Below, piece by piece: positions 39,309 to 43,689 of a stretch of 64,000 nucleotides of DNA. Source of the stretch: the human T2T-CHM13v2.0 reference genome, Homo sapiens. Below the pieces are notes generated by a model. It was not told where the DNA came from, did not search any database, and worked only from the letters and a program-made list of their open reading frames with translations. The stretch lies in the NCBI RefSeq assembly GCF_009914755.1, contig NC_060927.1; one strand, 5' to 3'. The position numbers and the translations under genes are program-made. The stretch's first letter is position 1, and each line of letters opens with the position of its first letter.

Positions 39309-40812
39309 CCCATGATATATTATCCTTTTTAAACATTGCTGGATACAATGTAATTTTGCTAGGAATTTTCTAATCCATATGCACAAAAATATTTTGTCCG
39401 TAGTTGTATTTTTCCTGTAATATCCCTGATTAGTTTTGGTATCAGGGTAATGCTGGATTCATTAACAAAATTGAGAAGTGTTCCCTCCTCTTATGTTTTC
39501 TAGCAAAGTCTATATTATTTCTTCCTTAAGTTTGTTTTATTTCATCCCTGATGCCATCTGAGAGTAAATTTTCATTGTCAGAAAGTTTTAGACTACACAT
39601 TTAATGTCTTTAATCCATTTCTTCCTTTTTCATTTACTTATTTTTTAAGAGACGGTATCTGTTGCCCAGGCTGGAAGTGTAGTCACACAAGCATGGCTCA
39701 CTGCGGCCTCAAACTCCTAGGCTAAAGGGATCAATCCACCTCAGCCTCCCCAGCAGTTGGGGAGATGCACATTGCCATACCCAGGTAATTTTTTATTTTT
39801 TGTAGTGACAGGGTTTTGCTTTGCTGCCTAGGCTGGTCTTGAACTCCTGGCTTCAAGCAATCCTCCTGCCTCAGTCTCCCAGTGTTGAAATTACAGGCAT
39901 GCGTCAACATGTCTGGCTTCTTTAATGCATTTCTGTTTGCTAGTTTATATTCTTAGAGGAACTTGTCCATTTCATGTAAATTATCAATTTAGTTGCCACA
40001 AAGTCATCCATAATATTCTCTTATTAGTTTGACTTTTTTTTTTTTTGAGAGGGAGTCTCACTCTGTCACCCAGGCTGGAGTGCAGTGACACGATCTCGGC
40101 TCACTGCAACCTCCACCTCCCAGATTCTCCTGCCTCAGCCTCCTGAATAGCTGGTGGCACGTGCCACCACACCTGGCTAATTATTTTTAGTAGAGACGGG
40201 GTTTCACCATGTTGGCCAGGCTGTTCTTGAACTCCTGACCAGGTGACAAGGCAGGTGATCTGCCTGCCTCAGCCTCCCAAAGTTCTGGGATTACAAGCAT
40301 GAGCCACCACTCCTGGCATTGATTGTAGTTTTGAAGAATGGACTAAAATGTCCCTAATATTTCACCCTTAATGAATTATCAGTTATCTTTTATATTAAAT
40401 ATTATATTGAATAGATCTTGTATATCTTTAGAGAAACATGATCTTTGTTGAAACACAGACTAACCTATTAATCCTTCTATACTTTGTAATAAACAACTCC
40501 CAAATGGGTTTTATCCCATGAAAATGTGACGTCATCCACATGAAATGTGACGTCAAAAACTACAGCTCATTTTCTTTTTTTTTTTTTTTGAGACAGCGTC
40601 TCACTCCCAGGATGGGGTGCAGTGGCGCAATCTCGGCTCACTAGCTTCCGCCTCCTGGGTTCAAGGGATTCTTGTGCCTCAGCTGGGATAACAGGCATGC
40701 CTGGTTAATTTTCGTATTTTTGGTAGAGACTAGGGTTTCACTATGTTGCCCAGGCTGTTCTTAAACCCCTGAGCTCAAGCAATCAGCCCATCTTCGCCTC
40801 CCAAAGTGCTGG

Positions 40813-41110
40813 TGTTGTAGACAAAACCGGGTTCTGGTCACATGGCAGGGAAAGATTAGGCACGCAGACACTTTGAAAGGTGAGGGGTTACGAATTTATT
40901 GGGCAAAAGGGAAAAAGAACAACACAGCAAAGTGAGATGGAGTCCTGCTAACAGGCTGTCCATCTCACCAACTGAATTCCTGGTTACTATCCTGGAACAG
41001 CAGGGGCCAGGCTGTTCCCCTCTGCAAATGGTGTGAACATTTTGCTGCTGCACCCCATCCTCCCAGTGCTTGTAGATTGTCTTGGGAGCCGTTTTTACTT
41101 GGCTGTCTCA
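40813..41110 (-). mobile_element. ERV1 solo LTR, copy 3 (inverted), same Alu junction
   Basis: ctgg-tgttgtag...ggctgtctca-ctag. Confidence 0.8.
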
Positions 41111-43689
41111 CTAGGGTTACAGGCATTAGCCACCGCGCTGGGCATTCTCTTTTTTCTTTTTTTCTTTTTTTTTTTTTTTTTGAGATGGAGTTTCCCTCTG
41201 TCGCCCAGGCTGGAGTGCAGTGGTGAGATCTCAGCTCACTGCAGCCTCTGCCTCCCGCATTCAAGCAATTCTCCTGTCTCAGCCTCTGGGTAGCTGGGAC
41301 TACAGGAACGTGCCAAAACGCCTGGCTAATTTTTTATTTTTAGTAGAGACGTGGTTTCACCATGTTGGCCAGGCTGGTGTCGAACTCCTGACCTCAGGTG
41401 ATCCGCCCGCCTCGGCCTCTCAAAGTGCTGGAATTACAGGCATGAGCCACCAGGCTTGGCCCTCTAATTAGTTTTCTAATTTCTGCGGGATGTGTACCGA
41501 AATTTTCTAATACTGGTGATTTGTGGGGGTTTTTTGTCCTCTGATCAATCTGGCTTTAGAGTTATCAATTTTAATAATCTTTTTTCAACGTACTAGATTT
41601 AGGTTTGATTGAGGTCTGCTATTGTTTTTTTTTCTGATTTTTACTTTATTCATTCTCCTGGAATTTTGTTTCCCATCTCCTCCTTACAATGTGCCCTATT
41701 TTTTTTCCTTAGTTTCTTAGCTAGAAGTTTAAGTCACTGATTTCAACTTTTTTCTGTTCTAATATAAGGATTAAATGCTACAAATTTTTCTCTAAAGTAC
41801 TGCTTTAGTTGCATCTAACAAATTTGAATGTTAGTCCTCACTCTGCACAGTACCATGCATGAATCCTGTACATACCAGAACTGTCCTTACTTGGCAAAAA
41901 TCTGTCTTGGTTACCTGCCTGTACTATTTTCATTTTCAATGAGTTCAAAATATTTTCTAACTTCTGTTGTGATTATTTCCTTAACCCATGATTATTGAGA
42001 AGTATTTTCTTCAATTTCCAAATACCTAGGAATTATTCTTGAGACATTTCTAGTTTAATTCTATTGTGATCAGAGAACATACTTTCACTTCTTTTAAATT
42101 ATACTGAGACTTGTTTTATGGACTAGAATATGATCTTGGTAAATATTCCATTTGCACTCGTAGAGAACGTATTCTGCTGTCCTTGGGTGAAGTGTTTTAT
42201 AAATGTCAGTATCAATCTGGTTGGGCAGTGTTATTCAGGTCTTCCATATCCTTATTAATATTCTGTTTATTTACTCTATCAGAGAGGAGAGCTAAAATCT
42301 CCAACTCTTAATTGTGGACTGATCTATTTCCAATTTTATCATGTATTCTGCACCTGTTGTTATATGCATACACATTCAGGCTTATTACATTCTGATTCTG
42401 GCAATCTGATTCTTATGAGCCATTATATGTTTTCTTTATGTTTCTTCTTGGGTTTTGTTCAGCTCCTTGGATCTATGAGTTCAATGTTTTCCTTAAGTTT
42501 GAAAATTCTTCAACTATAATTTTTTCAAGTATCTTTTCTGATATCCTCCTTTCTGGGATTCCGCTCATACATATTAGACTACATGATATTGTCCCACAAA
42601 TTACTGATGCTCCCTTCATTCTTTTTCAGTCACTTCATTCTCTGTGTTTCATTTTGGATAGTTACTATCACTGTCTTGAAAACCGCTGATTACTTTTCTT
42701 TCCTGCTGTAGTAAATCTTCAGTTAATCCTATCCAGTGTGTTTTCCATTTCAGATACTGTATTTTTTCCTCTCTAGAATTTCCATTTGGGGCTTCCTCCT
42801 ATTTTCAATAGCTCTCTTTAACAGTCATATTCTTCTCTATCCTTTTGAGCATAAATATGCTAGTTGCTTTAACATTCTTATTTTCTAATTCAATCAACTC
42901 TGCCATTTCTGGATCTGTCTTATTATTTTTCTCCTGATTTTGGCTCATATTTTCCTGCTTCTTTATATCCCTGATAATTTTTGGATTCCAGATATTGTGA
43001 AATTTAACATGGTCAGGTGCTAGATTTTATCTTCTTTCTTTTAGTAGTGTAATACTTTGCCCTGGCATATAGTTAATTTAATTCTTTCAAGACCTGCCTT
43101 TAAGAATCTTCAAAGCAGATTCACTGCAGTCTTTGTTGTAAAACTAATCTAGACTCACTACTAAGGCCAGAGCCTTCTGAGAACTCTATCCAATACCCTG
43201 TATGTGTCAAAGTCTTTCCACTGTGGCTGAAGGGAACGCAAACTATTCCCAGCCTTGTGTGAAAGTACAGAAAGTGCTTAGCCTACTACTGTTTTCTGGT
43301 AGTTTTTCCCGGGCCACAGGTAGTTTCCTCTCACACATGGCCAGACCAGTGATCAGCCAAACATTCAAAAGGATCCTTTTTCAGATCTTTGGAACTCTGA
43401 GTACTCTCCACTCTCTTGAACTCTACACCTCAAATTCTAGCCTCTTTGACCTCCCCAAATTCCAATCTATGCTCCTCAACTCTAGGCTCTGTTTGGGTTC
43501 CCCTCCCTGTGCTGTGGCCTGGAAACTGTCTCTGGGCAATAAGTTCAGGTCATCATAGGTATTCTCTCACTTGCTTCTCCTCTCTCAGAAACCAAAGTCC
43601 TGTGCTGCCTCTTATACAATGTCTTAAAACTACTGTTTCATATATTTTATCTGGTTTTCCAGCTACTTTAAATGGGATGGCAGTTACAA

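What the first reader, a model, noticed from the sequence alone, without database searches (positions are those of the whole stretch)
40018..41474. Circularly permuted, mosaic 1.43-kb insertion: fossil of a DNA circle reintegrated through an Alu
Seen: read on the minus strand, 40031-41461 is Alu - Alu::LTR - 250-bp unique AT-rich segment - Alu. It is bounded by one 13-bp TSD (ctcttattagttt 40018-40030; ctctaattagttt 41462-41474). The unique segment is an inverted copy of 62280-62522. The LTR 5' part lacks 9 bp (tggcctgcg) and has 'aagacaat', exactly like copy 2 (62847). The Alu downstream of the LTR shares derived changes with copy 1 (gctgatt, catagtg, cctgttat, ggaagctagtg, ctgggag deletions). 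The Alu after the unique segment shares ggagYggt and a tgtaatc deletion with the Alu at 62523. Inference: crossover between direct copies 1 and 2 releases a ~1.15-kb circle with a hybrid LTR (5' from copy 2, 3' from copy 1). A single Alu-Alu crossover into a resident TSD-flanked Alu 21 kb away then gives exactly this permuted order. Pol III retrotransposition is unlikely because of internal T-runs. An alternative source is an internal unit of a once-longer tandem array.
Basis: partly seen in the sequence, partly recalled or inferred. Interest (0 to 1): 0.8.

Follow-up and report, generated by a model that had tools for sequence, protein, structure and literature searches.

The report
Mosaic repeat copy inside an Alu
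A 1.43-kb block in an SLC4A7 intron is a real, roughly 20-45-million-year-old copy of one unit of a nearby Alu/LTR repeat, stitched from two neighbouring repeat copies and sitting inside an older Alu insertion; it was probably made by DNA recombination, but a DNA circle cannot be shown.

Summary
Read on the minus strand, 41461-40031 is Alu_A, then an Alu-with-LTR composite (c3), then a 250-bp unique segment, then Alu_B. A 12/13 target-site duplication bounds it. The unique segment has only two copies in the whole genome.

The composite is a true mosaic. Its 5' LTR shares derived states only with copy 2: a 9-bp deletion, a C, and AA. From c1 position 61997 onward it shares derived states only with copy 1. 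One switch lies at 41041-40847 (0 of 20,000 permutations reach the observed contrast).

All three composite copies lie within 23 kb. The sense strand carries seven T4+ runs and an LTR AATAAA. I therefore favour a local, DNA-level, Alu-guided copying of one recombinant repeat period into a resident Alu (about 0.6).

The circle is one route to that product. Ectopic gap repair with a template switch gives the same product and leaves the donor intact, as observed. The key prediction of reciprocal Alu hybrids could not be confirmed: Alu_A carries no rare Alu_M state.

Circle integration through repeat recombination is already in print (SVA-SVA, cattle KIT). This is a new member of a known kind. Orthologous primate loci would decide.

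The parts
41462..41474 (-). TSD copy on the 5' side of the block (minus-strand sense: aaactaattagag)
   Evidence: 12/13 match to 40018-40030
41145..41461 (-). Alu_A: full-length AluS-like element (body 41461-41182) with a 37-nt A-rich tail (41181-41145). Taken as the resident Alu, or at least its 5' part.
   Evidence: starts directly at the TSD; no rare Alu_M-derived state; 79% identical to Alu_M against 80-84.5% to other window Alus
40570..41144 (-). Composite c3: 33-nt Alu 5' fragment, about 298-bp solo LTR (41111-40814), AluJ-like 3' part and A-run. Mosaic of copy 2 (5') and copy 1 (3').
40847..41041 (-). Interval holding the single switch from copy-2-like to copy-1-like. It lies between the last c2+c3-only derived state and the first c1+c3-only derived state.
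   Evidence: the raw-pattern maximum-chi-square breakpoint lies slightly further 3' (c1 62054/62059)
40319..40569 (-). U3: copy of the unique segment 62273-62524. It includes the 5' TSD copy of Alu_M (aaactacaatcaa) and a 13-bp tandem duplication.
40031..40318 (-). Alu_B with an A13 run and a terminal GTC. Its 5' end is homologous to Alu_M (same U/Alu junction); the origin of its 3' part is unresolved.
40018..40030 (-). TSD copy on the 3' side of the block
61660..62272 (+). Copy 1 (c1): the founding composite (LTR 61694-62031) with its own TSD aagaaa[g/a]ca. Donor lineage of the 3' part of c3.
62273..62524 (+). U1: the unique segment between copy 1 and Alu_M
62525..62801 (+). Alu_M: the Alu between the two source copies
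62813..63408 (+). Copy 2 (c2) (LTR 62847-63144). Donor lineage of the 5' part of c3. With Alu_M it lies inside one TSD (62512-62524 and 63414-63427).

Best explanation
A resident Alu at this intronic site, the owner of the 13-bp TSD, was enlarged by a local DNA-level event guided by Alu or A-tail homology. The event copied exactly one roughly 1.14-kb period of the Alu/LTR tandem repeat that lies 21 kb away in inverted orientation.

The copied period is recombinant. Its first part (Alu 5' fragment plus most of the LTR) comes from the copy-2 lineage. The rest (LTR end, Alu 3' part, unique segment, start of Alu_M) comes from the copy-1 lineage.

Shown: the mosaic, the single switch, the TSD, the two-copy status of the unique segment, and the confinement of all copies to 23 kb.

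Inferred: the route. I slightly prefer ectopic break repair in the resident Alu, which copies from the repeat and re-invades out of register between copies 2 and 1, because it leaves the donor locus intact as observed. Integration of a circle excised by a copy 1 x copy 2 crossover gives the same product and is not excluded.

Whether the joints lie in the Alu bodies or in the A-rich tails is unresolved.
For: Mosaic:
- Site patterns are c1-odd 18, c2-odd 7, c3-odd 14 in c1 61665-61995, against 3, 23, 15 in 61996-62267.
- Over 59 events the best split is 24:11 against 1:23. Maximum chi-square is 24.2, reached by 0 of 20,000 permutations; Fisher p = 4.5e-7.

Polarity, with 27 other LTRs and 30 window Alus as outgroups:
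- c2+c3-only rare states: C at c1 61725 (0 of 27), the 9-bp deletion (9 bp present in at least 26 of 27), AA at 61772-3 (3 and 2 of 27).
- c1+c3-only rare states: T at 61997 (2 of 27), G at 62022 (2 of 27), T at 62059 (0 of 30), T at 62154 (0 of 30). A at 62183, A at 62210 and the 2-bp and 7-bp deletions are also shared.
- c1, c2 and c3 share rare states along the whole LTR, so c1's LTR is a true paralogue.

Local, DNA-level:
- The unique segment has only 2 copies genome-wide.
- c2, c3 and c1 are the three best of 40 scored LTR matches out of 697 candidates.
- 0 of 27 other LTRs have these Alu junctions.
- The three best non-local matches to the composite-specific Alu stretch carry no LTR or U.

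Against an RNA route: seven T4+ runs and the LTR AATAAA lie on the sense strand.

A parallel case: copy 2 also lies inside the TSD of an Alu. Its last 105 bp carry 0 composite-specific rare states, against 8 events in the preceding 150 bp. This fits an Alu-homology joint there.
Against: - No rare Alu_M state is found in Alu_A. After Alu position about 176, none is found in Alu_B either. Homology joints inside the Alu bodies are therefore unproven.
- By plain identity, Alu_A, Alu_B, Alu_M and AluX show no special kinship.
- The 7 nt before c3 (agagaat) match the aaagcaa/aaagcca preceding copies 1 and 2 at only 4 positions. This fits a left boundary exactly at the composite's first base, which a retrotransposition into an A-tail would also give.
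- A poly(A) end beside a TSD is the classical hallmark of target-primed reverse transcription. Here it can equally be the resident Alu's own.
- c3 has about three times more private changes than its source lineages since the split (29 against 10). No model here explains that.
Confidence: 0.6

Rival explanations
1. An intrachromatid crossover between copies 1 and 2 released a roughly 1.14-kb circle carrying a hybrid LTR, the unique segment and Alu_M. One Alu_M x resident-Alu crossover integrated it. Alu_A would then be resident::Alu_M and Alu_B would be Alu_M::resident.
For: - The product matches in order, size (one period plus one Alu) and hybrid polarity (copy 2 5', copy 1 3').
- All Alu_M states shared with Alu_B lie at Alu positions up to about 176. 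The three shared with Alu_A lie at about 208 or later, the direction expected for reciprocal hybrids.
- A precedent is in print: SVA-SVA recombination integrating a circle, with chimeric SVAs and inner and outer TSDs (PMC9132208, abstract and passages read).
Against: - The three states shared with Alu_A occur in 9-11 of 29 background Alus. About 1.5 would be shared by chance, and 0 of 5 rare Alu_M states in that part are shared.
- The donor locus still holds both copies. The circle would have had to enter another chromatid or homologue, or the deletion was later recombined away.
- Alu_A's 37-nt tail and the nucleotides before c3 do not resemble Alu_M's A10 tail plus gcc(agcc)n.
- Nothing separates this route from gap repair.
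Confidence: 0.25
2. L1-mediated retrotransposition. A read-through RNA (composite, unique segment, Alu_M A-tail) was reverse-transcribed into the A-tail of a resident Alu, or joined to an Alu RNA by template switching. The hybrid LTR would come from RT template switching or from a recombinant donor allele.
For: - A 13-bp TSD that starts with AAA, and an A13 run before the 3' TSD copy.
- Homology to the source seems to begin at the composite's first base and to end in an Alu A-tail.
- Alu_A shows no Alu_M ancestry.
Against: - The insertion lies 21 kb from its source and copy 2 lies 0.25 kb from copy 1. From general knowledge, L1-mediated insertions land genome-wide.
- No copy exists elsewhere in the genome.
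- The sense strand has seven T4+ runs (Pol III terminators) and the LTR AATAAA at 40900.
- No second A-rich TSD is visible.
- The mosaic needs an extra rare event.
Confidence: 0.12
3. Two steps. A plain colinear DNA copy of copy 1 - unique segment - Alu_M was placed in the resident Alu. Later, an interlocus gene conversion from copy 2 overwrote the first 330 bp or more of c3.
For: - Except for the 5' LTR characters, the block is colinear with 61574-62801 (one HSP of 1300 nt).
- c3's private changes are slightly fewer in the 5' part (14 in 289 nt) than in the 3' part (15 in 260 nt).
Against: - It needs two independent ectopic events between loci 21 kb apart in inverted orientation.
- Copy 2's private branch in the 5' part (7) is not shorter than copy 1's in the 3' part (3), as a later conversion would predict. 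The counts are small.
Confidence: 0.12

Closest known systems
[quoted passage not shown] Cattle KIT colour-sidedness (Durkin 2012) and Chicote 2020 were seen only as citations in that paper.
   Same: A duplicated segment flanked by two copies of a retroelement. The resident element's TSD lies at the outer borders. The order of source sequence is shifted relative to the donor. The donor is retained.
   Different: The scale is 1.1 kb rather than tens of kb or more. The circle would arise by crossover between two direct repeats, so the 'permutation' is visible only as paralogue-specific sites. The chimeric nature of the flanking Alus cannot be shown here, whereas the SVA chimeras could be typed by subfamily.
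Yeast HXT6/7 circle and chromosomal HXT6-HXT6/7-HXT7 amplification (as described in bioRxiv 10.1101/2022.06.22.497135, passages read)
   Same: A hybrid repeat unit (5' of the downstream copy, 3' of the upstream copy) generated by recombination between two tandem paralogues.
   Different: There the extra unit returns to the original locus. Here it lies 21 kb away, inverted, inside an Alu.
Ectopic gene conversion or synthesis-dependent strand annealing that carries a heterologous insert between dispersed repeats (general knowledge, not looked up)
   Same: It is local and homology-guided, leaves the donor unchanged, and permits template switches between tandem paralogues.
   Different: No direct evidence for a break in the resident Alu. 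Tract ends in the Alus are not resolvable.
L1-mediated chimeric retrocopies and 3' transduction (general knowledge, recalled)
   Same: A full-length Alu at the 5' end, a poly(A) at the 3' end, and one TSD round the whole.
   Different: The location is in cis beside the source. Internal terminators and a polyadenylation signal are present. The content is a recombinant of two paralogues.

Membership tests
Circle-mediated duplicative transposition | Copy is circularly permuted relative to the donor | tested here: inconclusive
   Copy-2-type 5' LTR states precede copy-1-type sequence. Because copies 1 and 2 are paralogues, the same pattern arises from a template switch or an unequal-crossover unit.
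Circle-mediated duplicative transposition | Reciprocal chimeric repeat elements at both borders (resident::donor and donor::resident) | tested here: inconclusive
   Alu_B's 5' end is Alu_M-derived (junction, plus a deletion seen in 0 of 29 background Alus). Alu_A shares only 3 common states with Alu_M and 0 of 5 rare ones in its 3' part.
Circle-mediated duplicative transposition | Resident element's TSD at the outer borders | tested here: met
   12/13 TSD at 40018-40030 and 41462-41474
Circle-mediated duplicative transposition | Pre-insertion state (single Alu with the same TSD) in outgroup species | not testable with these tools
   No primate genomes are held. Only the window's own genome could be searched.
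L1-mediated retrocopy (TPRT) | TSD plus a 3' poly(A) | tested here: met
   Both features can belong to the resident Alu.
L1-mediated retrocopy (TPRT) | Template transcribable end to end | tested here: not met
   Seven T4+ runs and an LTR AATAAA on the sense strand. The states at the time of the event are inferred from the shared copies.
L1-mediated retrocopy (TPRT) | Insertion site independent of source position; dispersed copies | tested here: not met
   All three copies lie within 23 kb. The unique segment has 2 copies genome-wide.
Dispersed composite repeat family (SVA-like) | Many copies with the same internal junctions at unrelated loci | tested here: not met
   The 5' junction pattern with up to 3 mismatches gives 5 hits: the 3 local copies and 2 loci with LTRs of a distinct family. 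0 of 27 family LTRs have the Alu junctions.

The most novel reading that the evidence does not exclude
The block is a genuine germline fossil of a microDNA-sized (about 1.14 kb) extrachromosomal circle. The circle was excised by crossover between two tandem Alu/LTR repeats and re-entered the genome by a single Alu-Alu crossover in an ancestral catarrhine. This would be the smallest and most completely reconstructible case of circle-mediated duplicative transposition in the primate lineage. Copy 2's own nesting in an Alu hints that Alu-guided copying struck this locus twice.
Probability: 0.25. Interest if true: 0.6.

Novelty: new member of a known kind. Interest (0 to 1): 0.4.

Why it matters
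Small non-tandem duplications are usually put down to retrotransposition whenever a TSD and a poly(A) are seen. Here those hallmarks most likely belong to an older Alu, and the 1.1 kb added inside it was copied at the DNA level from a recombining tandem repeat nearby. This gives a clean, datable example of Alus acting as landing pads for homology-guided insertion. It also gives a concrete locus at which primate orthologues can separate circle integration from ectopic gap repair.

Both the copy and its source overlap RefSeq-annotated enhancers in SLC4A7 introns. Only the copy has gained two TGACGTCA sites.

Tried and rejected
1. Copy 1's LTR was replaced by an unrelated family member, which would make the copy-2 likeness of c3 spurious. 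Rejected: c1, c2 and c3 share rare states at 10 LTR columns that interleave with the c2+c3-only states. Most c1-private states occur in 0 of 27 family members.

2. The composite is a dispersed mobile family. Rejected.

3. The 3' junction pattern search was not specific. Its 3,512 hits with up to 3 mismatches are mostly ordinary Alus. The 1-mismatch hit at chr3:32.87 Mb is an ordinary Alu.

4. Kinship of Alu_A, Alu_B, Alu_M and AluX by plain identity. No signal; even the certain Alu_B/Alu_M pair ranks 14th-22nd of 32 in the 5' half.

5. Alu_M as a hybrid with AluX. They share only two common CpG-type states (read). Inconclusive.

6. Second A-rich TSD around c3-U3-Alu_B. None seen by eye.

8. 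The LTR family could not be named because no repeat library is held.

9. No supplements were read.
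Full report
**What is there**

Read on the minus strand, 41461-40031 consists of five parts.
- Alu_A: a full-length Alu (41461-41182) with a 37-nt A-rich tail.
- c3: a composite made of a 33-nt Alu 5' fragment, a roughly 298-bp solo LTR (41111-40814) and the remaining AluJ-like 3' part with its A-run.
- U3: a 251-bp AT-rich segment (40569-40319).
- Alu_B: a second Alu (40318-40034) ending in A13.
- A terminal GTC.

The block is bounded by ctcttattagttt and ctctaattagttt, a 12/13 match. The chance is 1.4e-6 per placement and 1.7e-4 allowing 121 offsets.

The source region 21 kb away on the plus strand reads AluX, copy 1 (c1, 61660-62272), U1 (62273-62524), Alu_M (62525-62801), copy 2 (c2, 62813-63408).

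**The unique segment is unique**

Whole-genome searches with U1 and with U3 each return two places only, the two copies in this window, at 85% identity. A direct alignment gives 34 differences in 247 aligned positions, 9 gap events and a 13-bp tandem duplication in U3.

The LTR belongs to a dispersed family: 697 first-look candidates, of which 40 were scored. The three best matches are c2, c3 (90%) and c1 (77%). Every other scored copy is at most 83% identical.

The composite is confined to this window.
- None of 27 other family members examined has the Alu junctions.
- The 5' junction pattern with up to 3 mismatches finds the three local copies plus two loci whose LTRs belong to a distinct lineage.
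- The three best non-local matches to a composite-specific Alu stretch carry no LTR and no U.

**The mosaic is real**

Three sequences alone only give branch lengths, so I polarised the variable sites. The outgroups were 27 other LTR copies and 30 window Alus.

States shared only by c2 and c3, and rare or absent outside:
- a C at c1 61725 (0 of 27);
- a 9-bp deletion (the 9 bp are present in at least 26 of 27);
- AA at 61772-61773 (3 and 2 of 27).

States shared only by c1 and c3:
- T at 61997 (2 of 27) and G at 62022 (2 of 27);
- T at 62059 (0 of 30) and T at 62154 (0 of 30);
- further 3': A at 62183, A at 62210, a 2-bp deletion and a 7-bp deletion.

The only conflicting site is a CpG transition at 62054.

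Rare states common to all three copies run through the whole LTR and interleave with the c2+c3-only ones. So c1's LTR is a true paralogue that kept the ancestral 9 bp. It is not a replaced sequence.

Unpolarised counts tell the same story. In c1 61665-61995 the odd-one-out is c1 18 times, c2 7 times and c3 14 times. In 61996-62267 the counts are 3, 23 and 15. Over 59 events the best split is 24:11 against 1:23. Maximum chi-square is 24.2, reached by 0 of 20,000 permutations.

The switch lies between c3 41041 and 40847, inside the LTR.

The A occurs in 3 of 30 window Alus, and I recall it as the AluJ ancestral state.

**How did it get there**

Three facts point to a local DNA-level event rather than retrotransposition.
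1. All copies of the composite lie within 23 kb, and c2 lies only 0.25 kb from c1. From general knowledge, L1-mediated insertions are scattered genome-wide. A scan that looks within windows will pick up the rare coincidence, but two local events are hard to credit.
2. The sense strand carries seven T4+ runs and the LTR's AATAAA. AATAAA is present in c2 and c3 and mutated in c1. Both Pol III and Pol II transcripts would tend to stop short.
3. The inserted material equals exactly one period of the tandem structure. It is a hybrid of the polarity that recombination between the two repeats produces.

The TSD and terminal A-run are then simply those of an older resident Alu.

**Copy 2 shows the same architecture**

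Alu_M plus c2 sit between aaaccacaatcaa (62512-62524) and aaacctacaatcaa (63414-63427).

c2's last 105 bp carry none of the composite-specific rare states. The preceding 150 bp carry 8 such events, and at that density about 5.6 would be expected in 105 bp. This suggests that c2's 3' end belongs to the resident Alu.

This finding also means that the four distal c1+c3 characters may predate c2. The four between 61997 and 62154 are unaffected by it.

**Circle or not**

Alu_B's 5' end is certainly Alu_M-derived. It has the same U/Alu junction, an A seen in 4 of 29 background Alus, and an overlapping deletion seen in 0 of 29.

Alu_A shares with Alu_M only three states, each common in the background (9-11 of 29). 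It shares none of Alu_M's five rare states in that part of the Alu. After position about 176, Alu_B shares none either.

The numbers do not exceed chance, which would give about 1.5 shared states in that part. Plain identities are uninformative.

The 7 nt before c3 match those before c1 and c2 at only 4 positions. Alu_A's 37-nt tail is unlike Alu_M's A10.

The donor still holds both repeats. A circle excised from the same chromatid would have removed one of them.

Ectopic gap repair of a break in the resident Alu, with re-invasion from c2 to c1, gives the same product and leaves the donor intact. So does a copy of the middle unit of an unequal-crossover triplication. A colinear copy followed by a later c2-to-c3 conversion is a further possibility.

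I therefore give about 0.6 to the DNA-level, homology-guided class, about 0.25 to the circle specifically, and about 0.12 to an RNA route.

**Age (inference)**

K2P distances between c3 and its nearest paralogue are 8.9% in the 5' part and 8.2% in the 3' part. Between c1 and c2 they are 10.2% and 12.9%. With recalled neutral rates of 1-2e-9 per site per year, the event falls very roughly 20-45 million years ago. The block should therefore be absent from some primate outgroups.

**Unexplained**

c3 has about three times as many private changes as its source lineages since the split (29 against 10). Only about 3 of those are cases where c1 and c2 share the derived state.

**Comparison with the literature**

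Integration of a circular intermediate by recombination between retroelements, leaving chimeric elements and nested TSDs, was described for SVAs at lcr16a (PMC9132208, abstract and passages). That paper cites Durkin 2012 and Chicote 2020 for circle-mediated duplication.

The yeast HXT6/7 circle with its hybrid unit is summarised in a bioRxiv perspective (10.1101/2022.06.22.497135, passages).

One literature search was run. I did not search specifically for this locus. The finding is a small, old, Alu-based member of that known kind, with the mechanism still open.

Noticed in passing
62512-62524 and 63414-63427; c2 63296-63400: Alu_M and copy 2 together are flanked by one TSD (aaaccacaatcaa / aaacctacaatcaa). 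The unique segment and the sequence after copy 2 were therefore once contiguous. Copy 2's last 105 bp carry none of the composite-specific rare states (8 events in the previous 150 bp), as if its 3' end were the resident Alu's.
   Followed up: partly
61095-61103, 61651-61659, 62273-62281: Three copies of aagaaagca / aataaagca / aagaaaaca. Copy 1's TSD appears re-used by AluX, which inserted exactly at copy 1's 5' border. AluX itself carries a younger nested Alu (61245-61545) with the TSD aatacaaaa[g/a]ttag.
   Followed up: partly
40527-40534 and 40548-40555: A 13-bp tandem duplication in U3 gives two perfect TGACGTCA palindromes (CRE-like, recalled motif). They lie inside the RefSeq enhancer 40461-40961. 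The source U1 has none. The source region also overlaps a RefSeq enhancer (62160-63019).
   Followed up: no
61782-61818 and 61943-61949: Copy 1's LTR has a private 37-bp tandem duplication and a 3-bp insertion. It has also lost the AATAAA that copies 2 and 3 keep (ggctaag against caataaa).
   Followed up: partly
L037 (G000:C3:183695000-183703500) and L035 (G000:C5:180364800-180367800): At two other loci an LTR of a related but distinct lineage is joined to an Alu 5' fragment that ends at the very same Alu position (…cctgtaatcc-n-a-g/a | tgagacag). At chr3:183.70 Mb it is a whole old provirus: the LTRs are 84% identical, the 3' LTR is followed by the matching Alu 3' part, and the Alu has its own TSD. 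On a tree these LTRs do not group with the composite. This is either an integration hot spot in Alu or chance; a rough estimate gives a few per cent.
   Followed up: partly
62802-62816: A (gcca)n microsatellite lies between Alu_M's A10 run and copy 2. It was probably seeded by the gca of copy 1's TSD, carried along with copy 2. This hints that copy 2's homology to copy 1 begins a few bases upstream of the Alu start.
   Followed up: no
41145-41147 and 40031-40033: Both ends of the inserted period show G-N-N after an A-run: gaa before c3 and gtc after Alu_B. The source has gca/gcc at the Alu-tail/composite junction. This may be a 3-nt terminal redundancy of the copied unit, but it is too short to test.
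   Followed up: no
40570-41144 against 61660-62272 and 62813-63408: c3 has accumulated about three times more private substitutions than the source copies since the split (29 against 10).
   Followed up: partly
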